In this document: piece by piece, positions 4,861 through 19,678 of the stretch
Layout: every line of letters begins with the position of its first letter
Position numbering within the stretch: the stretch's first letter is position 1
Assembly (NCBI GenBank): GCA_963730185.1
Contig: CAVSQW010000015.1
Location: 64,001 to 128,000 of the forward strand
Length of the DNA: 64,000 nt
DNA from: an uncultured Gemmatimonadales bacterium
Lineage (GTDB): Bacteria > Gemmatimonadota > Gemmatimonadetes > Gemmatimonadales > GWC2-71-9
Direction: 5' to 3'
Translations under genes and position numbers: made by a program
The notes under the pieces: model-generated
The model's input: the letters and a program-made list of their open reading frames with translations, nothing else
What the model was told of the DNA's origin: nothing
Databases searched by the model: none

Positions 4861-6117
4861 ATGCCCCAGTTGGCGCGGTTTCCTGGGTCGTGGCTCGTGG
4901 TGCTGGCGGCCGCCGCCTGCACCGGGAGCACCGAGATCGTCACGCCGCCGCCTCCGCCGGCGAGCGGGTTCACGCTGCGATTCGTGCCGGAGCCGGAGGA
5001 CGGGGCGACGGCGGCGGCGCTGGGATGGGGAAGCGGGTTACCGGGGTTGGCGGTGACGCTGACGCCGTCGGACTCGAGCCAGCCGGCGCGGACCTTCACG
5101 AGCGAAGGCGACGGGATGGTGGCGATCCCGGACCTGGTGGCGGGGGACTACATCGTGGAGGCGAGCCGGTGGCTAACGGCGGGGGAGCGGGCGGAGCTGG
5201 CGAGCGGGGACGATGGGGACGGGTTCGCGACCCGGACGGTGCTCCGAACGGGAACGGGGGTGGGCAGTACGACGATCGCGGTGCCGGCGAGCCGGCGGCG
5301 GTCGCTAGTGATCAGTGAGTGGGCGTTCAACCCGGGGCAGACCCCTGGTCGTGGCGGGTACGATTTTGGCGGCTTTCTGGAACTCTACAACAACTCGGAC
5401 ACCACGCTGTTCCTCGATGGCATGGTCGTGGCGCGGGGACTGGATCACGAGCTGGACTATCCTCTTTATCCGTGTGGCGGCGAGTATCACACGTTCAGTG
5501 CCGACGCAAGAGGTATTTGGACGCTCGGATACCAGGTCTTTCCCGGTGCCGGCCATGACTATCCGATCCTTCCTGGCCACGACATCGTGATTGCCACTGA
5601 TGCCATCGACCATCGACCCTTCTATCCCGGGGCAATGGATCTCAGTCATGCAGATTTTGAGTTCGTCGGCGCCGCGGACCCCGACAATCCTGCGGTTCCC
5701 AACATGGTGAACACGGGGTATGACCGCGACTTGCAGGGGCATGGCCTCTTTTGGCAGGACTTGGGGGCGATCGCCGTGGTGGCGATGCCGCTCGACACGG
5801 CCGCCCTGACGACGGCGGTATACCCCGGCACCAGCACATTCGCGTTCCCACGAATCCCGGGCGATAAGGTCCTCGATGTTGTTGCCATGAGGGCAGTCCG
5901 CGACTATGGCTACGCGTTGTGTCCTTCCATCCTGAATCCGCAATTCGATCGCGAACCGTTTGTGGGGCGCGGTGCAGACGTGGTGGCCGAATTTCTCTAT
6001 TCGGTATCACGGCGCGCCGCCGACCTGCCCAACGGCGGCCGGCCGATCCTACGAGACACGAGAAGCAGTGATGCCGACCTGGTACGAACCATACGAACGC
6101 CGGGGGTCGTCCCATAG
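4861..6117 (+). CDS. DUF4876-like lipoprotein, cassette 1 (418 aa)
   Basis: Lipobox LAAAAC; LVISEW..FLELYNNSDTTLFLDG, ATDAIDH, DLSHADFEF and DNPAVPNM resemble DUF4876 proteins. Confidence 0.8.
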   Translation: MPQLARFPGSWLVVLAAAACTGSTEIVTPPPPPASGFTLRFVPEPEDGATAAALGWGSGLPGLAVTLTPSDSSQPARTFTSEGDGMVAIPDLVAGDYIVEASRWLTAGERAELASGDDGDGFATRTVLRTGTGVGSTTIAVPASRRRSLVISEWAFNPGQTPGRGGYDFGGFLELYNNSDTTLFLDGMVVARGLDHELDYPLYPCGGEYHTFSADARGIWTLGYQVFPGAGHDYPILPGHDIVIATDAIDHRPFYPGAMDLSHADFEFVGAADPDNPAVPNMVNTGYDRDLQGHGLFWQDLGAIAVVAMPLDTAALTTAVYPGTSTFAFPRIPGDKVLDVVAMRAVRDYGYALCPSILNPQFDREPFVGRGADVVAEFLYSVSRRAADLPNGGRPILRDTRSSDADLVRTIRTPGVVP

Positions 6118-6125
6118 GTTGCCTT

Positions 6126-6158
6126 GGGGACGGCGCTCCGCTGGGGCGTGCCGTCCCC
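6126..6158. terminator. GC-rich hairpin between convergent stop codons (possible bidirectional terminator)
   Basis: ggggacggc...gccgtcccc inverted repeat; no clear U-tract. Confidence 0.45.
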
Positions 6159-6170
6159 GCCGTTCAGGAC

Positions 6171-6419
6171 CTAGTAGAGGCAGCGGCAGCAACCGTTGGT
6201 CGAGCCCCACTGAGCCTCGACCTCCTCCCCGTGGACCGCCACGCACGCGGCCAAGCACGCTCCCTCGTCCGGCTGCTGCCCGAGCCAATTCCAGCCGTCG
6301 TCGGGGCAGGTCAGCGCATTGGCCGGCGTGGCAACCGCCACCACCCCTCCGAACGCCAACGCCCCCGCCACCGCCACTCCAAACCCCCATCCGCCGAGCC
6401 TCTTGATGCTGCGTGACAT
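6171..6419 (-). CDS. Secreted six-Cys defensin-like peptide 1 (82 aa precursor)
   Basis: SD AAGGAGGAG; signal peptide ending PANA; mature LTCPDDGWNWLGQQPDEGACLAACVAVHGEEVEAQWGSTNGCCRCLY; three paralogues in the window. Confidence 0.88.
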   Translation of the reverse strand: MSRSIKRLGGWGFGVAVAGALAFGGVVAVATPANALTCPDDGWNWLGQQPDEGACLAACVAVHGEEVEAQWGSTNGCCRCLY

Positions 6420-6472
6420 GATCTCCTCCTTGCTGCGGGAAGAACAGCGAGCACCGCCGCGACCCGAGGTGG

Positions 6473-6785
6473 TCACGGGCGGACGCCCGCGGAAGTAGTC
6501 GTGGGTGGGGTCGCCCCGGGGGCGACCGTGCCAGGGGGCGGTGGGTCCCACGCGCCGAAGTCCCCGCGCAGGGCGGCGTAGACCGAGTCGAGGACCGGCC
6601 CGGGCTCGAGCCGGCCGGTGTGGGCAAAGACCACCTCGCCCCAGTGGTTCAAGACCAGGGTCTGCGGCACGGCCCGGGCCCGGGCGAGCTGGGCGGTCTT
6701 CCAGTCGGGGAAGGTGGCCACTGCAAAGGCCAAGGCGTGTTCGGCCGCGGAGCACTGGAGGGTCCCGACCGAATCCAGGCCAAGC
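6473..6785 (-). pseudogene. 5'-truncated remnant of the thioredoxin-like gene (no CxxC, no start)
   Basis: LGLDS...FPDWKTAQLARARAVPQTLVLNHWGEVVF matches only the C-terminal half of 13511-14161. Confidence 0.75.
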
Positions 6786-6938
6786 TGCCGCCTGTCAAGC
6801 CGTGCCTCCTCCACGCCCGTTTCACGTGCTCGTCGGCGCGAGCCAGCCTGCGCACGGGCTCCGTGGCCCGGTTTGGGCTCTTGCGCGGTGGCGTGGCGGC
6901 CCCTACCTATGGGACGATCCCCAGTCTGGAGTCCCCCC

Positions 6939-8186
6939 ATGCCCCGCATGGCGCGGTTTCCTGGGTCGTGGCTCGTGCTGCTGGCGGCCGTCGCCTGCAC
7001 CGGGAGTACCGAGATCGTGACCCCGCCGCCCCCGCCGGCGAGCGGGTTCACGCTGCGATTCGTGCCGGAGCCGGAGGACGGGGCGACCGCCGCGGCGCTG
7101 GGGTGGGGGAGCGGGTTACCGGGGCTCACGGTGACGCTGACGCCGACGGACTCGAGCCGGCCGGCGCGGGCCTTCACGAGCGACGGGGACGGGACGGTGG
7201 CGATCCCGGACCTGGTGGCGGGGGACTACATCGTGGAGGCGAGCCGGTGGCTGACGGCGGCGGAGCGCGCGGAGCTGGCGAGTGGGGACGACGGGGACGG
7301 GTTCGCGACCCGGACGGTGCTCCGGACGGGGACGGGGGTGGGCAGTACGACGATCGGGGTGCCGGCCAGCCGGCGGCGGTCGCTCGTGATCAGTGAGTGG
7401 GCCTTCAACCATTTCGGGCTGCCGGGAATCGGCGCCTATACCTACGACGGCTTCCTCGAGCTCTACAACAACGCGGATACCACGATTTACCTGGATGGGA
7501 TGATCATCGCCGAGGGGTTTCGGAACGGTATCGCCGACACACCGGCCTTTCCCTGCGCCGAGAGTCGGCCGTTTCGGGACGATTCCGCCGGGGTGTGGAG
7601 CTGGGCGATGGAGCGCTTTCCCGGCACGGGGCACTCGTTTCCGATTCACCCAGGCGAAGTCAGGACGGTGGCAACGGATGCAATTGACCATCGGGCCCTG
7701 TTCCCCGACGCGCTGGACCTGAGTCACGCCGACTTCGAGTTCCGTGGCTCGGGCGACGTAGACAACCCGGCGGTGCCGGACCTGACGGACCTCAGCCTCG
7801 CACCGTACCCCGACGGTCATGGCCTGGAGTTCCAGGGACTTGCCATCATTGCGGTCGTGGCGCTGCCCCTCGATCCAGCCAACCTGGTGCGAGGCAACGC
7901 AGGCGGCGGGGAGTACGTGCGCATTCCCAAGGCGCGAATCATGGACATCCTGACGCTCCGCTCGAACTTCGCGACCGGTTTTACGGAGTGCTCCCCGCTC
8001 GTGGCGGCGGGGATCGACCGGGAGTGGTCGGATGTCCGAGGGACCGACTACCGAGATGAGCACCGGCACTCGGTTTCCCGGCGTGTTGCGGGGCAGGGCC
8101 TCAGCGGGCGGCCGCTGCTCTGGTACACCCGGAGCTCGTTCGCCGACTTCGAGCGGACCTTGCGGTCGCCCGGCGCAATACGGTGA
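6939..8186 (+). CDS. DUF4876-like lipoprotein, cassette 2 (415 aa, most divergent C-domain)
   Basis: N-terminal ~157 aa near-identical to copy 1; FLELYNNADTTIYLDG, DLSHADFEF, DNPAVPD. Confidence 0.8.
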   Translation: MPRMARFPGSWLVLLAAVACTGSTEIVTPPPPPASGFTLRFVPEPEDGATAAALGWGSGLPGLTVTLTPTDSSRPARAFTSDGDGTVAIPDLVAGDYIVEASRWLTAAERAELASGDDGDGFATRTVLRTGTGVGSTTIGVPASRRRSLVISEWAFNHFGLPGIGAYTYDGFLELYNNADTTIYLDGMIIAEGFRNGIADTPAFPCAESRPFRDDSAGVWSWAMERFPGTGHSFPIHPGEVRTVATDAIDHRALFPDALDLSHADFEFRGSGDVDNPAVPDLTDLSLAPYPDGHGLEFQGLAIIAVVALPLDPANLVRGNAGGGEYVRIPKARIMDILTLRSNFATGFTECSPLVAAGIDREWSDVRGTDYRDEHRHSVSRRVAGQGLSGRPLLWYTRSSFADFERTLRSPGAIR

Positions 8187-8270
8187 CCCTGAGTCTCTGG
8201 TAGCAACACCCTCAGGCCCCGGCTTCACGGGCGCGAGGGGCCCGGCGCGTGGCCGAGCCCCTCCGGCGCC

Positions 8271-8517
8271 TCAGAAGTAGCAGGTGCAGCAACCCTGCTG
8301 CGTGTACCGGACCTGCACGAGTGTGGGATGCAGCGCGTAGCACGCGTCCCAGCAGTCGTTGTAGGACGGCTGGTATCCCAGCCAGTTCCACCCCGTCGTC
8401 CGCGCAGGACATGGCATTGGCCGGCTTGGCGACCGCCAGCAACCCTCCGAACGCCAACGCCCCGGCCACCGCCAGCCCGAACCCCCATCCGCCGATCTTC
8501 TTCACGCTGCGTGACAT
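8271..8517 (-). CDS. Secreted six-Cys peptide 2, with a +1 frameshift in a G4 run (~8391-8394), probably a sequencing error
   Basis: Removing one G gives MSRSVKKIGGWGFGLAVAGALAFGGLLAVAKPANA-MSCADDGWNWLGYQPSYNDCWDACYALHPTLVQVRYTQQGCCTCYF*. Confidence 0.8.
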
Positions 8518-8567
8518 GATGTCATCCTGACTTGAAAGACGGCAGGCACCGCCGCGACCCGAAGTGG

Positions 8568-9219
8568 TCACGGCCGGATGCCCGCGGAAGGAGTCGGACG
8601 GGGTCGGGAACGTCCGGCCGCCGAGTCGGTGGGCGGCGGGTCCCACGCTCCGAAGTCGCCTCGGAGGGCGGCGTAGACCGAGTCGAGGCCTGGCCCGGGC
8701 TCGAGCCGGCCGGTGTGGGCAAAGACGACCTCGCCCCAGTGGTTCAGGACCAGGGTCTGGGGCACGGCGCGGGCCCGGGCGAGCTGGGCGGTCTTCCAGT
8801 CGGGGAAGGTGGCCACCGGGTAAGTCAGAGCGTGCTCGGCGGCGTAGTCCCGGACCCGTGGGAGCGAGTCCAGCCCAAGGCCAATCACCCCAACGAGGGG
8901 CCGGGCGGCGCGAGTCGACTCGGCCAGGGCCGCCCAGACCGGCAAGGTGGCCCGACAGTAGGGGCAGGTGGTGGTGAAGACGAAGACGAGCTGCCGGCCG
9001 GCGGTGTCGGCGAAGGCGCCGACGGTGACGGAATCGCCGGCGAGGGTCTTGGTCCGGAAGGTCGGCAGAGCGTAACCGCGATATGGAAGCGCCGGCTTTG
9101 GCCGTGAGCTCCAGGTAGGCCCGATTCAGCGCGACCTGCCGGCGGGCCAGCAGCACGACCAGGCCTGAGGCGACGAGCAGGGTGCCGCGCAGGAGGGCGG
9201 GAATCGATCGGGTTGCCAT
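8568..9219 (-). CDS. Membrane-anchored thioredoxin-like (TlpA/redoxin) protein with a +1 frameshift near 9090
   Basis: Collinear with 13511-14161 but one base longer (652 vs 651 nt); FTTTCPYC is retained. Confidence 0.75.
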
Positions 9220-9817
9220 CGCGACGCTCGTGAGGTGGAGGGCCCCTCCACGATAACACGCGCCGGCTCCCGCCATAGAGCGCCAAGCGAGCCAGAAATG
9301 GTACCGGTTCAGGCCATGAGAGCCCCGGTGACGGAAAGGCGGGCATAGAGTCATTCGGCCCCATTGAGGCGTCGAGCGGATTCCGGTTATCCTGAGACGG
9401 ATACCTCGGACCTGGTGCCTATTTCGGATCAGTCGTTGTCGAAAGGTCCGCGGCACCTCGATGAGGCGCCGACCAGATCGTTGCCTTGCTAGAGACCTGA
9501 CCTCAGCAGGTTCGCGACCTGATCCGGGTCGGCTTCCACGATGCGCGACCGGCCGGTGGCGAGGCCGCCAGCTCGATGGTCAGAGCGCAGCGGCGGCAGA
9601 CGCTTCACCGCAGACCGAGCGTCGGGTCGGGGGAGCCTCGTCGAGGAAGGCGTGGGCAATGCCGCCGTCTGTCACTCCGTGCCTCCTTCGTACCTAGTTC
9701 GCACGTGCTCCTCCCCACGAGCCAGCCCTCGCACGGGCTCCGTGGCCCGGTTTGGGCTCTTGCGCCGTGGCGCGGCGACCCCTACCTATGGGACGATCCC
9801 CAGTATGGAGTCCCCCC

Positions 9818-11074
9818 ATGTCCCTAATCGCGCGGTGTCCTGGGTCCTGGCTCGTACTGCTGGCGGCCGTCGCCTGCACCGGGAGCACCGAGATCGTGAC
9901 GCCGCCGCCCCCGCCGGCGAGCGGGTTCACGCTGCGATTCGTGCCGGAGCCGGAGGACGGGGCGACCGCCGCGGCGCTGGGGTGGGGGAGCGGGCTACCG
10001 GGGCTGGCGGTGACCCTGACGCCGGCGGACTCGAGCCGGCCGGCGCGGGCCTTCACGAGCGAAGGGGACGGGACGGTGGCGATCCCGGACCTGGTGGCGG
10101 GGGACTACATCGTGGAGGCGAGCCGGTGGCTGACGGCGGCGGAGCGGGCGGAGCTGGCGGGCGGGGACGATGGGGACGGGTTCGCGACCCGGACGGTGCT
10201 CCGAACGGGGACGGGGGTGGGCAGTACGACGATCGCGGTGCCGGCCAGCCGGCGGCGGTCGCTGGTGATCAGCGAGTGGGCCTTCAATGTCGGGCAAACG
10301 CCCGGTCTCGGCGGCTACACCAACGGCGGCTTTCTCGAACTCTACAACAATGCCGACACGACGGTGTTCCTCGACGGCGTTGTTGTAGTGAAGGGCTTGG
10401 ACCAGGAGTTCGAATCGGCGGCCTTCCCGTGTTCTGCGTTCCGTCAGTACGCGAGTGATGCTGCAGGAATCTGGAGCCTTGCCTATCAAGTGTTTCCTGG
10501 TAAGGGCCGCGATTACCCTCTGGCGCCTGGGCACGTGGTCGTAGTTGCCACCGACGCCATCGATCATGGTGCGTTCTACCCAGCCGGCCTCGACCTCCGA
10601 TCGGCAGACTTCGAATTTGTCGGGACGAGTGATGCTGATAATCCGGCGGTGCCGAATATGGTAAACACTGGGTACGATCGTGACCTTGCGGGCCACGGCC
10701 TCGAGTGGGCGGAGCTTGGCGCGGTTGTTGCCGTTGCGAGACCGTTCGATACGACGGGCTTGGTCAGGGCGGTGTTCCCGGGTACGAGTACATTCGCCCA
10801 CCCCAGGGTTCCGACAAGTGCGGTGCTGGACGCTATCGCTATTCGGTCCAACTATGATCCGAGTCGCGGCGAGTGTCCCGACATCGTTAGTCCGCAGTTC
10901 GATCGGAACCCGTTTCGGGGGCGAGGCCGCGACCTGCCGATGGAGTTTCAGTACTCCGTATCGCGACGTACGATGCCCATCGAGATTGAGGGCCATGCAA
11001 TCCTACAGGACACCCGGGCCGGCAACGCAGACCTTGTCCGAAGTCCGAGGACCCCTGGCGTGATCCCGCAGTGA
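9818..11074 (+). CDS. DUF4876-like lipoprotein, cassette 3 (418 aa)
   Basis: Same conserved N-terminal half and lipobox LAAVAC; FLELYNNADTTVFLDG, ADFEF, DNPAVPNM. Confidence 0.8.
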   Translation: MSLIARCPGSWLVLLAAVACTGSTEIVTPPPPPASGFTLRFVPEPEDGATAAALGWGSGLPGLAVTLTPADSSRPARAFTSEGDGTVAIPDLVAGDYIVEASRWLTAAERAELAGGDDGDGFATRTVLRTGTGVGSTTIAVPASRRRSLVISEWAFNVGQTPGLGGYTNGGFLELYNNADTTVFLDGVVVVKGLDQEFESAAFPCSAFRQYASDAAGIWSLAYQVFPGKGRDYPLAPGHVVVVATDAIDHGAFYPAGLDLRSADFEFVGTSDADNPAVPNMVNTGYDRDLAGHGLEWAELGAVVAVARPFDTTGLVRAVFPGTSTFAHPRVPTSAVLDAIAIRSNYDPSRGECPDIVSPQFDRNPFRGRGRDLPMEFQYSVSRRTMPIEIEGHAILQDTRAGNADLVRSPRTPGVIPQ

Positions 11075-11118
11075 CCGCGAGGTGACCTGCGGCCACCCCG
11101 CGGCGGTTCAGGCGGTCT

Positions 11119-11367
11119 CTAGTACAGGCAGCGGCAGCAGCCGTTGGTGGACCCCCACTGTGCCACGACGTCTGGGCCGTGAATGCTGGAGCAGACGTCG
11201 TAGCATACGCTCTGAGATGGCTGCTGCCCTACCCAGTTCCACCCGTCATCCTGGCAGTTCAGCGCATTGGCCGGCGTGGCAACCGCCACCACCCCTCCGA
11301 ACGCCAACGCCCCCGCCACCGCCACTCCAAACCCCCATCCGCCGAGCCTCTTGATGCTGCGTGACAT
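11119..11367 (-). CDS. Secreted six-Cys defensin-like peptide 3 (82 aa precursor)
   Basis: SD AAGGAGGAG; leader identical to peptide 1; mature LNCQDDGWNWVGQQPSQSVCYDVCSSIHGPDVVAQWGSTNGCCRCLY. Confidence 0.88.
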   Translation of the reverse strand: MSRSIKRLGGWGFGVAVAGALAFGGVVAVATPANALNCQDDGWNWVGQQPSQSVCYDVCSSIHGPDVVAQWGSTNGCCRCLY

Positions 11368-11420
11368 GATCTCCTCCTTGCTGCGGGAAGAACAGCGAGC
11401 ACCGCCGCGACCCGAGGTGG

Positions 11421-11733
11421 TCACGGGCGGACGCCCGCGGAAGTAGTCGTGGGTGGGGTCGCCCCCGGGGCGACCGTGCCAGGGGGCGGTGGGTCCCACG
11501 CGCCGACGTCCCCGCGCAGGGCCGCGTAGACCGAGTCGAGGACCGGCCCGGGCTCGAGCCGGCCGGTGTGGGCAAAGACGACCTCGCCCCAGTGGTTCAA
11601 GACCAGGGTCTGCGGCACGGCCCGGGCCCGAGCGAGCTGGGCCGTCTTCCAGTCGGGGAAGCTGGCCACCGCAAAGGCCAAGGCGTGCTCGGCGGCGTAG
11701 CGCCGGACGGCCCCGACCGAATCCAGGCCAAGC
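11421..11733 (-). pseudogene. 5'-truncated remnant of the thioredoxin-like gene
   Basis: Same breakpoint and near-identical sequence to 6473-6785. Confidence 0.75.
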
Positions 11734-11886
11734 CGCCGCCTGTCAAGCCGTGCCTCCTCCACACCCGTTTCACGTGCTCGTGGGCGCGAGCCAGCCTGCG
11801 CACGGGCTCCGTGGCCCGGATTGGGCTCTTGCGCGTTGCCGCGCCGGCCCCTACCTATGGGACGATCCCCAGTCTGGAGTCCCCCC

Positions 11887-13143
11887 ATGCCCCGCATGGC
11901 GCGATTTCCTGGGTCGTGGCTCGTGGTGCTGGCGGCCACCGCCTGCACCGGGAGCACCGAAATTGTCACCCCGCCGCCCCCGCCGGCGAGCGGGTTCACG
12001 TTGCGATTCGTGCCGGAGCCGGAGGACGGGGCGACGGCCGGGGCGCTCGGGTGGGGTAGCGGGTTACCGGGGCTGGCGGTGACGCTGACGCCGGCGGACT
12101 CGAGTCGGCCGGCGCGGGCCTTCACGAGCGAAGGGGACGGGACGGTGGCGATCCCGGACCTGGTGGCGGGGGACTACATCGTGGAGGCGAGCCGGTGGCT
12201 GACGGCGGCGGAGCGGGCGGAGCTGGCGGGCGGGGACGATGGGGACGGGTTCGCGACCCGGACGGTGCTCCGGACGGGGACGGGGGTGGGCAGTACGACG
12301 ATCGGGGTGCCGGCCAGCCGGCGGCGGTCGCTCGTGATCAGTGAGTGGGCGTTCAACGTGGGCTCCACGCCGGGTCTAGGTGGGTATTACACCGGCGGCT
12401 TCCTCGAGCTCTACAACAACAGTGACACGACCATCTATCTCGATGGCATGGTGGTGGCGCGAGGCCTCAACCTCGAGTTGGACTATCCGCTCTATCCCTG
12501 CAACGGGCCATACTACGCGTTCACGGCCGACCCGGCCGGTATCTGGACCCTAGGGTATCAAGTCTTTCCGGGGACCGGCCACGACTACGCCATCACGGCG
12601 GGCCAGGCTATCGTGATCGCGACGGACGCGATCGACCACCGGCCATTCTATCCAGGGGCGCTCGACCTGAGTCACGCGGATTTTGAGTTCGCTGGCAGCG
12701 CGGATCCGGACAACCCCTCCGTCCCCAACATGGTGAACACAGGATACGATCGCGACCTGTCGGGACATGGGCTGTTCTGGCAGGACCTTGGTGCGATCGC
12801 CGTGGTTGCGTTGCCCCTCGACACGACATCGCTGGTAAAGGCCATCTACCCTGGCCCTGGCACGTTCGCCCATCCGCGGATCCCTCGATCGAGGATTCTC
12901 GATGTCGTGGCGATGCGTGCGAGCCAGAGCTTTGACTATCCGCCATGCGCGACGATCATCAACCCAGAGTTCGATCACGAACCATTCCGGGGGCGGGGGG
13001 GAGATGTGGCGGCCGAGTTCCTGTATTCGGTGTCGAGACGGCCCACGGGCCTCCTCAGCGGTGGGCACCCAATTCTCCAGGATACCAGGACGGGAGAGGC
13101 GGATCTCCTTCGAACTGCCCGAACCCCGGGGCTGGTGCCATAG
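11887..13143 (+). CDS. DUF4876-like lipoprotein, cassette 4 (418 aa)
   Basis: Lipobox LAATAC; C-domain closest to copy 1 (ELDYPLYPC, GIWTLGYQVFPG, GHGLFWQDLGAIAVVA). Confidence 0.8.
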   Translation: MPRMARFPGSWLVVLAATACTGSTEIVTPPPPPASGFTLRFVPEPEDGATAGALGWGSGLPGLAVTLTPADSSRPARAFTSEGDGTVAIPDLVAGDYIVEASRWLTAAERAELAGGDDGDGFATRTVLRTGTGVGSTTIGVPASRRRSLVISEWAFNVGSTPGLGGYYTGGFLELYNNSDTTIYLDGMVVARGLNLELDYPLYPCNGPYYAFTADPAGIWTLGYQVFPGTGHDYAITAGQAIVIATDAIDHRPFYPGALDLSHADFEFAGSADPDNPSVPNMVNTGYDRDLSGHGLFWQDLGAIAVVALPLDTTSLVKAIYPGPGTFAHPRIPRSRILDVVAMRASQSFDYPPCATIINPEFDHEPFRGRGGDVAAEFLYSVSRRPTGLLSGGHPILQDTRTGEADLLRTARTPGLVP

Positions 13144-13211
13144 AGATCACAGAGGAGAAGCACCGGGCCGACCTGATGGGGTTCCGGCCGGCTCGGCGCT
13201 CTACTCGGAAA

Positions 13212-13460
13212 TCAGAAGAGGCAACGGCAGCAGCCGTTGGTCGACCCCCACTGCGACTCCACGTCCGGGTCATGGACAGCGACGCACGCTGCGTGACACG
13301 TTGCTGCGTCCGGCTGCTGCCCGAGCCAATTCCAGCCGTCGTCGGGGCAGGTCAGCGCATTGGCCGGCGTGGCAACCGCCACCACCCCTCCGAACGCCAG
13401 CGCCCCCGCCACCGCCAACCCGAACCCCCATCCGCCGATTTTCGTCATGCTGCGTGACAT
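13212..13460 (-). CDS. Secreted six-Cys defensin-like peptide 4 (82 aa precursor)
   Basis: SD AGGAGG; mature LTCPDDGWNWLGQQPDAATCHAACVAVHDPDVESQWGSTNGCCRCLF. Confidence 0.88.
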   Translation of the reverse strand: MSRSMTKIGGWGFGLAVAGALAFGGVVAVATPANALTCPDDGWNWLGQQPDAATCHAACVAVHDPDVESQWGSTNGCCRCLF

Positions 13461-13510: not shown

Positions 13511-14161
13511 TCACGGTCGGACGCCCGCGGAAGTAGTCGTACGCGCTTGGGGACGCCTGGCCGCCGAGTCGGCGGGCGGCGGATCCCACGCTCCGAAGTC
13601 GCCCCGCAGGGCGGCGTAGACCGAGTCGAGCACCGGCCCCGGTTCCAGCCGGCCGGTGCGGGCAAAGACGATCTCGCCCCAGTGGTTCAGGACCAGGGTC
13701 TGGGGCACGGCGCGGGCCCGGGCGAGCTGGGCGGTTTTCCAGTCAGGGAAGGTGGCCACCGGGTAGGTCAGGGCGTGCTCAGCCGCGTAGCGCTGGACCT
13801 TCCCGAGTGAATCCAGGCCGAGACCGAGGATCGGCGTCGAAGGCCAGCCGGCCCGGGTCGAGTCGGCCAGCGCGGCCCAGACCGGCAGGGTGGCGCGGCA
13901 GTAGGGACAGGTGGTGGTGAAGACGAAGACCAGTTGGCGGGCCGCGGTGTCGGCCAAGGCGCCGACGGTGGCCGAATCGCCGGCCAGCGTCGCAGCCCGG
14001 AAGGTCGGCAGAGCGTAGCCTCGATAGGGAAGGCCGGCTTTGGCCTTGAGCTCCAGGTACGCCCGATTCAGCGTCACCTGCCGGCGGGCCAGCACCACGA
14101 CCAGGCCGGAGGCGACGAGCAGGGCGCCGCCCAGGAGGGCGGAAATCGATCGGGTTGCCAT
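13511..14161 (-). CDS. Membrane-anchored thioredoxin-like (TlpA/redoxin) disulfide oxidoreductase, intact (216 aa)
   Basis: N-terminal TM segment, LPTFRAATLAG, LVFVFTTTCPYC active site, cis-Pro motif VPQTLVL. Confidence 0.85.
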   Translation of the reverse strand: MATRSISALLGGALLVASGLVVVLARRQVTLNRAYLELKAKAGLPYRGYALPTFRAATLAGDSATVGALADTAARQLVFVFTTTCPYCRATLPVWAALADSTRAGWPSTPILGLGLDSLGKVQRYAAEHALTYPVATFPDWKTAQLARARAVPQTLVLNHWGEIVFARTGRLEPGPVLDSVYAALRGDFGAWDPPPADSAARRPQARTTTSAGVRP

Positions 14162-18013: not shown

Positions 18014-19678
18014 ATGACCGCAAGCTGGTCAGGGTGGGCCGCGAGAACACAACCAAAAAAGCGCATAGCGGCGCCGGTGATTGCCGGCCTGGCCGTCGCC
18101 TGGCTCGGGCTCGGCGGACCGCTCGCCGCCCAGTCGATCGGTCTGGCGCCCGAGCACGACCTGCCGGCCTGGCTCGACCGGTGGAGCGTGCTGGCGCCCC
18201 GGGCCGATCTGCCCCGGCACTTTCCCACCGCCGGTTCGGCGCTCCCGGCGGGGCTCTTTCCGGCGACCACCATCGGGCTCTTCTGGACGGCGGCCAACCC
18301 GGCCGGTCTGGCTGGGGCGGTGGACAGCGCCTGGACCGAGTTCCGGGCCGCGGCGGCGGGCAGCCGGGGTGCGTTCCGGCGGCCGCTCGATCCGGGGGGC
18401 ACGCGGCTTCGGCAGATATCGGCGACCTCGTGGCGACCGCTGACCGACCGAGTCACCATGCTGGGCCGGGTGGTGCTCGACCAGGAGCGGTTCGATCCCG
18501 GGAGCCAGGCCGACGAGAGCGAGCCCTACCCGACCAGCCCGTTCGTCACCACCGACAGCAGCACCAGCCCCACCCGCCGGACCCGAGCCCGGCTGGAGGG
18601 CGTGGCGGCCTGGCGGCTCGGGGCCTGGGCGTTAGGCGCCGACCTGGGCTACGAGACCAACGAGCGGCGGACCATCGAGGCCGGGTTCGCCCGACTGACC
18701 CGCCAGACGATGCCGGGCGTGGCGCTGGGGGTGACCCGGACCGCGGGCGGACTGACGGTCGGGCTGGTGGGCCGCTACCGGAACCGGGCCGAGACGATCG
18801 ACCTGACCGAGCGGGCCGCCGAGGGGCAGGTGGTGGACCTGGCCGGGTACCAGGGGGTGACGCCGATCAGTGTGAACCAGAGCTACTATCGGCGGATCGA
18901 CGAGGACGTCCCCTCGGCCAGCCTCGGCCTGAGCGGCGCGGGGCTGGGCGGCCGCTGGGTGGCGTTCGTCGAGGTGTCGCGCCTCCGCGAGCGGCGGACC
19001 CGGCAGCAGCAGGACCAGCCCGCCTACGACCGGTGGAACGCCGGCGCCTGGACCGCGGGCGCCGCCTACCAGCGCGGCCTGGGCCGCTCCGGCCGGTGGC
19101 GGCTGACCCTGGACGGCCGCTTCACCGCCCTCACCGGCGACGGCGACCTGGCGCTCGACTCGGCCGGCACGGTCTTCACCGCGACCGAGCGGGCCTTCGA
19201 GGGGCGGGCCGAGCTCCGCCGGCTCCGCTCGGCGGGCGGCTGGTCGGGGCTGATCGCGGTGAAGTCGCGCTACGAGAACCGGGTCCGGAACGACTCGATC
19301 GCGGTGATCGGATCGAAGATCCAGACCGCCGGCCTGGGCGTGGAGCTGGAGCTGGGCCACCCATTGGCCCCTGGCGTGGCATTCCTCGCCTCGGGCGGGC
19401 TGGTGAGTCAGGCGTCGAGCGCCGCGATCCCGGCGCCGCTGGTGCAAGGCGCCGTTTACCAGCGGCTGATCGCCCCGGAGCTCGACTTCTACGCCCGCGA
19501 CCTGACCCCCTGGTCGGCCGGCCTCGCGCTCCGCTGGCAGGCGAGTGCCCGAACCGCCCTCTGGCTGGCCGGGCACGCCGAGGGGGTGAGCCCCCGCGGT
19601 CCGATGGGGCCGACCGGCTACACCGGCTCGGCGGGGCGATCGGCGTCGAGTGTCGTGCTCGGGGTCGTGCTTCGCTGA
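18014..19678 (+). CDS. Outer-membrane beta-barrel protein, DUF6850-like (554 aa)
   Basis: Signal peptide ending PLAA-Q; NPAGL, GAFRRPLDP, PFVTTDS; amphipathic strands; lies next to the TBDR and DUF4876-like genes. Confidence 0.65.
   Translation: MTASWSGWAARTQPKKRIAAPVIAGLAVAWLGLGGPLAAQSIGLAPEHDLPAWLDRWSVLAPRADLPRHFPTAGSALPAGLFPATTIGLFWTAANPAGLAGAVDSAWTEFRAAAAGSRGAFRRPLDPGGTRLRQISATSWRPLTDRVTMLGRVVLDQERFDPGSQADESEPYPTSPFVTTDSSTSPTRRTRARLEGVAAWRLGAWALGADLGYETNERRTIEAGFARLTRQTMPGVALGVTRTAGGLTVGLVGRYRNRAETIDLTERAAEGQVVDLAGYQGVTPISVNQSYYRRIDEDVPSASLGLSGAGLGGRWVAFVEVSRLRERRTRQQQDQPAYDRWNAGAWTAGAAYQRGLGRSGRWRLTLDGRFTALTGDGDLALDSAGTVFTATERAFEGRAELRRLRSAGGWSGLIAVKSRYENRVRNDSIAVIGSKIQTAGLGVELELGHPLAPGVAFLASGGLVSQASSAAIPAPLVQGAVYQRLIAPELDFYARDLTPWSAGLALRWQASARTALWLAGHAEGVSPRGPMGPTGYTGSAGRSASSVVLGVVLR

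What the first reader, a model, noticed from the sequence alone, without database searches (positions are those of the whole stretch)
5331..13399. Tail-to-tail geometry: variable 3' ends of both genes form one swappable block that co-varies
Seen: the four lipoproteins are near-identical at nucleotide level up to ...RRSLVISEWAFN (junctions ~5331, 7409, 10288, 12357). They then diverge abruptly, with visibly more A/T-ending codons, especially in copies 1 and 3. The peptides are conserved in the leader and vary in the mature part. The similarity ranking matches for both partners: cassettes 1 and 4 are closest (lipoprotein ELDYPLYPC/GHGLFWQDLGAIAVVA; peptide LTCPDDGWNWLGQQPD..AACVAVH), 3 is intermediate and 2 is the outlier. 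The flanks pair differently, 1 with 3 and 2 with 4. Inference: recombination between the two conserved 5' halves would replace the binding domain and the mature peptide in a single event, as in polymorphic toxin-immunity cassettes.
Basis: partly seen in the sequence, partly recalled or inferred. Interest (0 to 1): 0.85.

Follow-up and report, generated by a model that had tools for sequence, protein, structure and literature searches.

The report
Swappable peptide–receptor cassettes on a transporter
Four tandem gene pairs, each a predicted surface 'lid' of one outer-membrane importer plus a small, likely secreted peptide with a predicted defensin-like fold, keep near-identical outer halves but ancient, very different inner halves that turn up recombined in related bacteria, and are likely matched lock-and-key pairs that let a cell recapture its own peptide.

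Summary
The lipoproteins are DUF4876 proteins, a family proposed as lids of TonB-dependent transporters (TBDT). The peptides are an unnamed family with a Sec-type signal, 6–8 Cys, an acidic mature part and a predicted CSαβ (defensin-like) fold. With a CPYC thioredoxin-like gene, one TBDT and a DUF6850 barrel they form a patchy five-gene Gemmatimonadota module.

Recombination is well supported:
- N-half dS is 0.12–0.17; C-half synonymous sites are saturated.
- A metagenome protein matches lid 2 at 78/80, 62/77 and 257/258 residues in successive segments.
- A metagenome contig carries a unit-2-type block in a unit-1/3-type frame.

- The blocks are old alleles under purifying selection. Much of the pattern is conversion of the flanks.
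- Tail-to-tail geometry is neither necessary nor sufficient.
- Toxin-immunity is only a rival.

Lid C-domain and mature peptide co-vary within arrays (rho 0.69, 31 pairs) and in 11 outside pairs (0.83). Across genomes ancestry predicts the peptide as well or better, and linkage alone is not excluded. Best reading (0.4): cognate peptide–lid pairs feeding one importer, likely a private nutrient carrier.

The parts
4861..6117 (+). Lid lipoprotein L1 (DUF4876, 418 aa; lipobox-like Cys20; N-domain about 35-145, C-domain about 146-418)
   Evidence: 46.6 bits, cut-off 27.9; domain bounds from the L4 model
5332..6314 (.). Variable block 1: L1 C-domain, spacer with hairpin 6126-6158, mature peptide P1 (6266-6314 already inside the P1/P4 identical tract)
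6171..6419 (-). Peptide P1 (82 aa: 35-aa Sec-type signal ending A-N-A, 47-aa mature part with 6 Cys)
   Evidence: signal read from the sequence, SignalP not available
6473..6787 (-). Truncated thioredoxin-like gene T1 (residues about 114-216 only; lacks membrane anchor and CPYC), fused to the upstream region of L2
   Evidence: the same junction is present in L051
6939..8186 (+). Lid lipoprotein L2 (DUF4876, 415 aa), outlier C-domain; C-domain 257/258 identical to metagenome protein P0007
7410..8412 (.). Variable block 2: L2 C-domain, hairpin 8235-8263, mature P2
8271..8517 (-). Peptide P2, broken by one extra base near 8394 in this assembly (assembly error or strain-specific break)
   Evidence: a related contig (X1) lacks the base
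8568..9219 (-). Full-length thioredoxin-like gene T2 (CPYC), 1-nt frameshift near 9091
   Evidence: a related contig (X7, depth 2.9) lacks the base
9818..11074 (+). Lid lipoprotein L3 (DUF4876, 418 aa)
10289..11262 (.). Variable block 3
11119..11367 (-). Peptide P3; signal and upstream region identical to P1 over 207 nt (11259-11465 = 6311-6517)
11421..11735 (-). Truncated thioredoxin-like gene T3 (same deletion as T1)
11887..13143 (+). Lid lipoprotein L4 (DUF4876, 418 aa); AF2 pLDDT 91, fold of BT1938 (4q1z)
12358..13355 (.). Variable block 4
13212..13460 (-). Peptide P4; mature part modelled as beta-alpha-beta-beta, pLDDT 96
13511..14161 (-). Intact thioredoxin-like gene T4 (N-terminal hydrophobic helix, CPYC; weak AhpC-TSA/StoA/DsbE/MauD matches below cut-off), directly upstream of P4
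14571..17432 (+). Single TonB-dependent transporter (CarboxypepD_reg + plug + barrel); ORF open from 14472, likely start 14571
18080..19678 (+). DUF6850 outer-membrane beta-barrel

Best explanation
Each unit is likely a matched pair: a peptide predicted to be Sec-exported and disulfide-folded by the neighbouring thioredoxin-like protein, and a DUF4876 lid whose variable C-domain likely recognises that peptide and would hand it to the one shared TonB-dependent importer, most likely as a private nutrient (metal) carrier. SHOWN here: gene identities and the five-gene module; old, purifying-selected C-domain alleles; recent homogenisation of lid N-halves and peptide signals; recombinant mosaics at both block edges; co-variation within arrays. 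INFERRED: peptide export and folding; peptide-lid recognition; the lid docking on the TBDT (by family prediction); import; the metal cargo (the weakest step). How the pattern arises: the near-identical lid 5' halves and the signal/thioredoxin flanks act as homology arms. Conversion tracts creep up to the divergent block and stop. An occasional double crossover moves a whole block into another frame or strain. Tail-to-tail geometry makes lid C-domain and mature peptide one contiguous kilobase, so they travel together. The genome then carries four ligand specificities on one barrel. Odds by step: recombination about 0.9, cognate recognition about 0.6, nutrient-carrier role given recognition about 0.6.
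For: Recombination: N dS 0.12-0.17 vs C pS 0.72-0.81 and C dN 0.18-0.55. The N-domain is not intrinsically conserved: 6495 between-contig pairs average N 42.9% vs C 45.8%, and 0.5% have N-C above 20 points. L2 vs P0007: 78/80, 62/77, 257/258 (Fisher 1e-9). L051 frame is unit-1/3 type (112/114, 148/154, 206/215 to U1) while its block is closest to unit 2 (lid C-part 60% aa vs 46-47%; mature peptide 64% vs 37-41%). X1 contig 12120-12589: at least 8 of its 9 differences lie before the junction (one contig, depth 4.7). Pairing: peptides stay 1:1 with lids where thioredoxin is truncated or missing and the TBDT is single (window; L124, L126, L108). 73 of 112 distinct full-length lids have an adjacent peptide. 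15 of 18 peptide-bearing genomes have a lid, against 30 of 401 overall (1.3 expected; kin not independent). Within arrays rho(C, mature) = 0.69, partial on N 0.65, against rho(N, mature) 0.34 (31 pairs). Unit-2-likeness of lid and peptide correlates in 11 outside pairs (rho 0.83). [quoted passage not shown] Nutrient role: Bacteroidota DUF4876-TBDT loci are listed as iron-responsive, up 20-214x and 38-128x (PMC10434189 passages). A peptide-less Gemmatimonadota locus sits beside CobW and Fur-family genes (L050). Lid-only loci occur in near-complete genomes (L132-L134, L137-L139), as for receptors of others' carriers.
Against: Across genomes the N-domain (genome ancestry) predicts the peptide better than the C-domain. 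Partial C-M|N is 0.095 (p 0.039) for 42 tail-to-tail pairs and 0.098 (p 0.13) for 31 co-directional pairs, against partial N-M|C of 0.46 and 0.33. In the close clade it is 0.155 (p 0.10) vs 0.32. In tail-to-tail arrays co-variation follows from linkage alone. In one search the lid contrasts are small (-6 to +4 points, except L051 at +14) and some rows share a genome. Three genomes (G289 95%, G382 99%, G285 96% complete) carry thioredoxin plus peptide but no lid or cognate TBDT with these queries, which is odd for a private carrier. No Fur-box enrichment upstream of 108 lids or 62 thioredoxins. No siderophore-reductase or ABC-uptake neighbour among 73 flanking proteins scanned. Apart from Cys and one Gly the peptides have no near-invariant residue that could bind metal. 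The AU test did not reject L2+P0007 as a clade on residues 81-157 (p 0.44; star-like tree, low power). Peptide 3831-contig P0003 is P1/P4-like while the full lid on a contig of that length (P0013) is L2-like; the pairing there could not be read.
Confidence: 0.4

Rival explanations
1. Self/non-self signal: the peptide is a kin or quorum 'password' captured by the cognate lid and imported, and a cell reads only the types whose lids it carries (a bacterial analogue of plant S-locus ligand-receptor pairs).
For: Same pairing and co-variation evidence. Ancient alleles shared among strains look like balancing selection: C-domain pieces of all four lids occur at 97-100% identity in contigs of four laid runs. 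The fold neighbours include signalling defensin-fold ligands, AtLURE1.2 (5yah, Z 2.5) and 5gyy_H (Z 3.1, rmsd 3.1, 39 aligned; recalled as an SCR/SP11 chain). Producer-only and lid-only genomes both fit a signal.
Against: No conserved sensor kinase, FecR or ECF sigma among the flanking proteins scanned. The TBDT shows no signalling-domain match. Z of about 3 is weak and shows no function.
Confidence: 0.2
2. Microcin-like toxin: the peptide kills relatives by entering through this TBDT-lid machine, and the cognate lid sequesters it (immunity) or varies to escape; blocks swap as in polymorphic toxin-immunity cassettes.
For: Constant/variable cassette architecture with orphan lids. Predicted defensin-like fold. 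Most microcins are neutral or anionic and enter by specific receptors (PMC10233263 passage), so the acidic charge (91 of 96 net negative, 0 positive) does not exclude it. Producers without the TBDT would be naturally immune.
Against: The partner belongs to a predicted uptake-lid family and sits with the importer (48 of 72 loci within the fetched DNA). No double-glycine leader, peptidase ABC exporter or small membrane immunity protein, which define class II microcins. Three of 18 producer genomes show no lid. The one myxobacterial defensin tested in PMC11561630 was inactive (passage).
Confidence: 0.15
3. Linkage only: lids bind external substrates and diversify for that reason; the peptide has a separate job (for example a TBDT accessory or secreted factor) and co-varies only because it sits in the same recombination-protected kilobase.
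For: Weak partial correlations across genomes and in co-directional loci. 39 of 112 lids have no adjacent peptide by the rule used (this includes contig ends). Peptide-only and lid-only genomes exist. The P1/P4 likeness is partly a conversion tract.
Against: The 1:1 peptide-lid count is kept through duplications in both geometries while thioredoxin decays. Genome-level co-occurrence is 15 of 18.
Confidence: 0.2

Closest known systems
DUF4876 lid + TBDT pairs of Bacteroidota (BT1938/BT1939, BT3632/BT3633; Price et al. 2023, 10.1101/2023.03.17.533168; structure 4q1z)
   Same: Pfam family, overall fold, lipoprotein beside a non-SusC TBDT.
   Different: Here four lids share one TBDT and have constant N and variable C halves. 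Each is paired with a Cys-rich peptide and a thioredoxin-like gene, which the parts of that paper I read do not mention. Only 17-18% identity to BT1938.
Self-made metallophore + cognate TBDT (methanobactin/MbnT, PMC9601215 abstract start only; pyoverdine/FpvA polymorphism, recalled)
   Same: Producer genes beside the importer; strain-specific ligand-receptor types; receptor-only 'pirates'.
   Different: The ligand is an unmodified disulfide miniprotein. Specificity would sit in a swappable lid, not in the barrel. Metal binding is untested and no Fur box was found.
Bacterial cis-defensins / CS-alpha-beta peptides (PMC11561630; actifensins)
   Same: Signal peptide, CxxxC helix and CxC strand, predicted beta-alpha-beta-beta fold.
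   Different: That survey has 0 mentions of Gemmatimonad-, TonB or thioredoxin. No Pfam or NCBIfam match here. Window peptides have 6 Cys and lack the GxC core of their 8-Cys relatives. All are acidic or neutral.
Type XI secretion loci (DUF560/Slam + TBDT + lipoprotein co-receptor or soluble hemophore; PMC8406197 passages)
   Same: Logic of TBDT + second barrel + surface lipoprotein + soluble secreted carrier.
   Different: The barrel is DUF6850, not DUF560, and the cargo lacks a TbpB_B_D domain. An export role for DUF6850 is a guess.
Polymorphic toxin-immunity cassettes (CDI/Rhs; recalled)
   Same: Conserved flanks, variable linked pair, orphan partners, exchange by homologous recombination.
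   Different: No toxin domain is recognised; the partner is a predicted uptake lid; the two genes are convergent rather than co-transcribed.
Brassica S-locus SP11/SCR-SRK (PMC7530648, PMC10624595; abstract starts only)
   Same: Cys-rich ligand linked to a hypervariable receptor; ancient alleles.
   Different: A eukaryotic receptor kinase with no homology shown; an analogy only.

Membership tests
DUF4876 (PF16215) | HMM score above the curated cut-off | tested here: met
   39.8-46.6 bits vs 27.9 for all four
DUF4876 (PF16215) | Fold of BT1938 (4q1z) | tested here: met
   Foldseek E 1e-19, TM 0.52; VIA Z 27.6, rmsd 12.3, 344 aligned
TBDT lids (Price et al. 2023) | Lipoprotein conserved next to a TBDT | tested here: met
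   TBDT in 48 of 72 lid loci within the fetched DNA. Here the lids are on the TBDT's strand but separated from it by the opposite-strand peptide and thioredoxin genes. The lipobox-like A-x-A-C was read by eye.
TBDT lids (Price et al. 2023) | [quoted passage not shown] | not tested
   TBDT plus lid exceeds the 1000-residue limit of the complex tool
CS-alpha-beta (cis-defensin) fold | CxxxC on a helix and CxC on the last strand | tested here: met
   C20, C24, C43, C45 invariant in 51 sequences; model helix 17-28, strand 42-46, pLDDT 96; best structural neighbours include plant defensins at Z 3.0-3.3, weak
CS-alpha-beta (cis-defensin) fold | Third canonical disulfide with GxC gamma-core | tested here: inconclusive
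   Present as GxC in 8-Cys relatives, replaced by non-Cys residues in the four window peptides; bond pattern not seen directly
Antimicrobial defensins | Antimicrobial activity | not testable with these tools
   0 of 96 mature peptides are cationic, unlike typical membrane-active defensins (own knowledge)
Class II microcins | Double-glycine leader with peptidase ABC exporter | tested here: not met
   Hydrophobic signal ending A-x-A; no such exporter among 73 flanking proteins scanned; definition from PMC10233263
Class II microcins | Small (51-216 aa) inner-membrane immunity protein adjacent | tested here: not met
   The partner is a 415-418 aa lipoprotein; the only small membrane-anchored neighbour is thioredoxin-like
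Polymorphic toxin-immunity cassettes | Conserved flanks with an exchangeable variable pair | tested here: met
Polymorphic toxin-immunity cassettes | Recognisable toxin domain or shown toxicity | tested here: inconclusive
   No Pfam or NCBIfam family, no usable Atlas hit
Polymorphic toxin-immunity cassettes | Producer always carries the partner | tested here: inconclusive
   3 of 18 producer genomes show no lid, but they are 95-99% complete drafts
Metallophore uptake systems | Fur/Zur-type control | tested here: inconclusive
   No excess of a recalled E. coli-type Fur consensus over shuffles; the Gemmatimonadota motif is unknown
Metallophore uptake systems | Ligand binds metal and is re-imported | not testable with these tools
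   needs bench work

The most novel reading that the evidence does not exclude
A new kind of bacterial ligand-receptor system: ribosomally made defensin-fold miniproteins read by interchangeable antibody-like (constant/variable) lids on a single TonB-dependent transporter. Ancient ligand-lid alleles are kept under balancing selection and traded among strains as one-kilobase cassettes, a bacterial counterpart of the plant S-locus used for private nutrient capture or self-recognition.
Probability: 0.35. Interest if true: 0.9.

Novelty: new variant of a known kind. Interest (0 to 1): 0.7.

Why it matters
DUF4876 lids have no known ligand, DUF6850 had no hit in the full-text search, and the peptide family is unnamed. 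The array offers a ready 4x4 test panel, and more than 70 natural pairs, to ask whether a TBDT's specificity can be reprogrammed by swapping a lid domain. It would show what a family of acidic bacterial defensin-fold peptides does if not killing. It would also be a first social or nutrient-competition system for the barely cultured phylum Gemmatimonadota. The recombination result stands on its own as a clean case of constant/variable cassette exchange.

Tried and rejected
- Complex prediction, L4 residues 144-418 with mature P4: verdict 'no answer' (scores 0.04 and 0.02; mark 0.32; controls not folded). It is not used as evidence either way.
- Sequencing runs: no RNA holder listed. Uncovered parts say nothing.
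- The metagenome scan gave only 2 loci, so the 6789-bp and 3831-bp contigs could not be read. That P0007, P0012, P0014, P0002 and P0004 share one contig is inferred from equal contig length, and their lid-peptide pairings are unknown.
- ESM Atlas: no usable hit for the peptide; only DUF6850 clusters for the barrel. No solved relative of the barrel by sequence.
- Foldseek on the peptide: no match at E of 0.001 or better.
- Promoter/terminator scan at chance level. Fur-box and palindrome search negative.
- AU test uninformative.
- Rejected: 'the N-half is simply more constrained' (synonymous sites show the same step; between-contig control).
- Rejected: 'the C-half is under rapid positive selection' at whole-domain level (dN far below dS); site-level selection was not tested.
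- Rejected: 'tail-to-tail geometry causes the step' as a rule.
- Rejected: assembly artefact (the units differ throughout, and all four C-types occur in other runs' contigs).
- Rejected: RiPP with modifying enzymes (no conserved neighbour beyond the five genes among 73 scanned).
- Earlier-findings look-ups returned nothing.
- RDP/GARD and SignalP were not available.

Full report
1. OBSERVATION. The region holds four + strand lipoprotein genes (L1 4861-6117, L2 6939-8186, L3 9818-11074, L4 11887-13143). Each faces a - strand 82-codon peptide gene tail to tail (P1 6419-6171, P2 8517-8271, P3 11367-11119, P4 13460-13212). The junctions are at 5331, 7409, 10288 and 12357. Identity is 85-100% per 60 nt before the junction and 33-80% after it, rising again in the peptide signal. 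GC3 falls from 0.90-0.95 to 0.69, 0.81, 0.68 and 0.75. Lid C-domain and mature peptide rank alike (1-4 closest, 2 outlier), while the right flank pairs 1-3 and 2-4 at 34 of 36 informative sites. All descriptive claims hold. P2 and thioredoxin T2 each have one extra base. Single related contigs lack these bases (X1 at depth 5.3, X7 at depth 2.9), so an assembly error is plausible but not proven.

2. WHAT THE GENES ARE. All four lipoproteins pass the Pfam cut-off for DUF4876. The L4 model (pLDDT 91) matches BT1938/4q1z. It has a CnaB/transthyretin-like N-domain (about 35-145) and a lamin-tail-like, loop-rich C-domain. The sequence junction (residue 157) lies one strand into the C-domain. Price et al. 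proposed DUF4876 proteins as lids on the outer face of TBDTs, from structure prediction and conserved proximity, with no phenotype (10.1101/2023.03.17.533168; I read parts 1 and 2 of 3; Table 1 is an image I could not see). Upstream of each peptide is a thioredoxin-like gene with CPYC, complete in units 2 and 4 and cut to its last 100 codons in units 1 and 3. Downstream lie one TBDT and a DUF6850 barrel. The genome has no other copy of lid or peptide (82% complete). The peptides have a basic-hydrophobic N-terminus ending A-N-A, which I read as a Sec signal (no SignalP run). The 47-aa mature part models as beta-alpha-beta-beta at pLDDT 96, with weak (Z about 3) matches to plant defensins and other CS-alpha-beta peptides. 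They match no Pfam or NCBIfam family. A profile finds 95 cluster representatives at 50% identity, 91 of them 70-93 aa long. The two named members among 10 clusters looked up are Gemmatimonadota. 91 of 96 mature peptides are net negative and none positive.

3. DISTRIBUTION. 60 of 61 genome loci returned are titled Gemmatimonad-; one is an 'uncultured bacterium'. Among 401 genomes of the phylum, 30 have a lid and 18 a peptide at E of 1e-4 or better (14 weaker hits left out, two of which proved real on inspection, G342 and G344). 15 have both, against 1.3 expected (kin are not independent). Of 112 distinct full-length lids, 42 have a tail-to-tail peptide, 31 a peptide just upstream on the same strand, and 39 none by that rule, including contig ends. 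Lid-only loci occur in near-complete genomes. Three genomes have thioredoxin plus peptide without lid or cognate TBDT found. Flanking genes differ at every locus (73 proteins scanned): a self-contained, patchy module.

4. RECOMBINATION. (a) N-half dS is 0.12-0.17, C-half synonymous sites are saturated (pS 0.72-0.81), and C-half dN is 0.18-0.55. The two halves of one gene therefore have different ages, which protein-level constraint cannot explain. Between contigs the N-domain is no more conserved than the C-domain (6495 pairs). (b) P0007, from another metagenome, equals L2 at 78/80 and 257/258 residues but only 62/77 in residues 81-157, where L2 equals its window paralogs at 73-75/77. L2 and L4 share a 110-nt identical tract ending 7 nt before the junction. 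The simplest reading is that L2's segment was overwritten by a neighbour. An AU test on that short segment did not reject the alternative (p 0.44). (c) Contig L051 has the unit-1/3 frame, including the same thioredoxin truncation, around a block whose lid and peptide are both closest to unit 2, with the switch in the peptide signal. (d) Pieces of all four C-domains occur at 97-100% identity in contigs of four laid runs labelled soil metagenome, while N-half pieces mostly differ more. The C-types are shared, old alleles. (e) In 24 loci with two or more lids, taking the most extreme pair per locus (a choice that inflates significance), four-fold sites show N below C at p under 0.01 in 9 (window included) and the reverse in 1. 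The step is seen in 4 of 8 tail-to-tail/tail-to-tail best pairs and 0 of 4 co-directional/co-directional pairs at that threshold (2 of 4 at p under 0.02). It is also seen in three arrays without tail-to-tail pairs (L078, L048, L109) and is missing in L116, L042, L071 and L114. The geometry may help but is neither necessary nor sufficient. The window is the most extreme case.

5. CO-VARIATION. Within arrays, C-domain and mature-peptide identity correlate (rho 0.69; partial on N 0.65; 31 non-independent pairs), more than N-domain and peptide (0.34). In 11 pairs from outside the window, unit-2-likeness of lid and peptide correlates at 0.83 (p 0.002), with small lid contrasts and shared genomes. 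Against this, across genomes the N-domain predicts the peptide better (partial N-M|C 0.46, 0.33 and 0.32 vs C-M|N 0.095, 0.098 and 0.155). Part of the P1-P4 likeness is a 94-nt copied tract. Linkage predicts the tail-to-tail result without any binding. The better argument for a functional pair is that peptides stay 1:1 with lids through duplications in both geometries while thioredoxin decays and the TBDT stays single.

6. MECHANISM. I commit to matched peptide-lid pairs feeding one importer, most likely for private nutrient capture (0.4). Thioredoxin-assisted folding, export, recognition and import are inferred. The metal link rests on related Bacteroidota loci being iron-responsive (PMC10434189, table passages only) and on a peptide-less locus beside CobW and Fur-family genes. 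Against it stand no Fur-box excess, no reductase neighbour and the producer-only genomes. Rivals: self-recognition signal (0.2), linkage only (0.2), microcin-like toxin with lid immunity (0.15). Acidic charge does not exclude the last, since most microcins are neutral or anionic (PMC10233263, passages), but the defining class II microcin features are absent.

7. NOVELTY. It is a member of DUF4876 and works like a TBDT-lid system. It has a toxin-cassette-like genetic architecture without being shown to be one. Searches of the held library: 'DUF4876' 5 papers, 'DUF6850' 0, Gemmatimonadota + defensin + TonB-dependent 0, locus tags 16 papers with 13 listed, and two broader searches. None of the titles or abstract starts listed describes this peptide-thioredoxin-lid module. 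A survey of 74 bacterial cis-defensins does not mention Gemmatimonad-, TonB or thioredoxin in its main text (PMC11561630, passages; supplements not read). Type XI secretion loci are the nearest organisational parallel (PMC8406197, passages). S-locus papers were seen as listings only; pyoverdine, CDI/Rhs and the identity of 5gyy are recalled. Subscription literature is largely outside the library.

8. VERDICT. A real feature and a well-supported recombination pattern in an apparently undescribed five-gene module whose function is still inferred. New variant of a known kind; interest 0.7.

Noticed in passing
window:17429-17974 (-): A Uma2-family putative endonuclease gene sits on the opposite strand between the TBDT and the DUF6850 barrel, which abut in most relatives; likely a recent insertion.
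   Followed up: partly
window:3634-4307 (-): Phd/YefM-like antitoxin (29.4 bits, just under the cut-off) followed by a PIN-like ORF judged by eye: a probable type II toxin-antitoxin pair just upstream of the array.
   Followed up: no
window:4418-4755: Nested imperfect inverted repeats (49-nt arms, 88% complementary) with short matches elsewhere in the genome and in other contigs: REP/MITE-like element at the array's left edge.
   Followed up: partly
window:1316-2554 (+): Bacterial serpin with a lipobox-like N-terminus, next to an M48 peptidase and an AraC-family regulator.
   Followed up: no
window:20063-34180: RND efflux trio, rhodanese/sulfur-transport cluster with class V aminotransferase, and a P-type ATPase downstream; not conserved beside the module elsewhere.
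   Followed up: partly
L154:7636-10210; L152:8837-9853; L155:8440-9731: Thioredoxin plus peptide genes (three peptides in L154) in genomes where no lid or cognate TBDT was found: producer-only loci or remnants.
   Followed up: partly
L044:6373-18258: Lid-TBDT-barrel trio repeated twice with identical match scores; recent duplication or assembly artefact.
   Followed up: no
L050:3768-14960: A more Bacteroidota-like DUF4876-TBDT pair without peptide, flanked by CobW and a Fur-family gene, hinting at a metal-uptake ancestry.
   Followed up: partly
L138:2205-2495 (-); L159:9189-9467 (+): Other short ORFs with a signal-like N-terminus and several Cys in a different spacing; possibly further secreted peptide families.
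   Followed up: no
L060:132-4504; L124; L126: Arrays with extra peptides per lid (L060) or 3-4 tail-to-tail pairs with mosaic rather than uniform N-halves (L124, L126), suggesting patchwork conversion throughout the lid gene in other lineages.
   Followed up: partly
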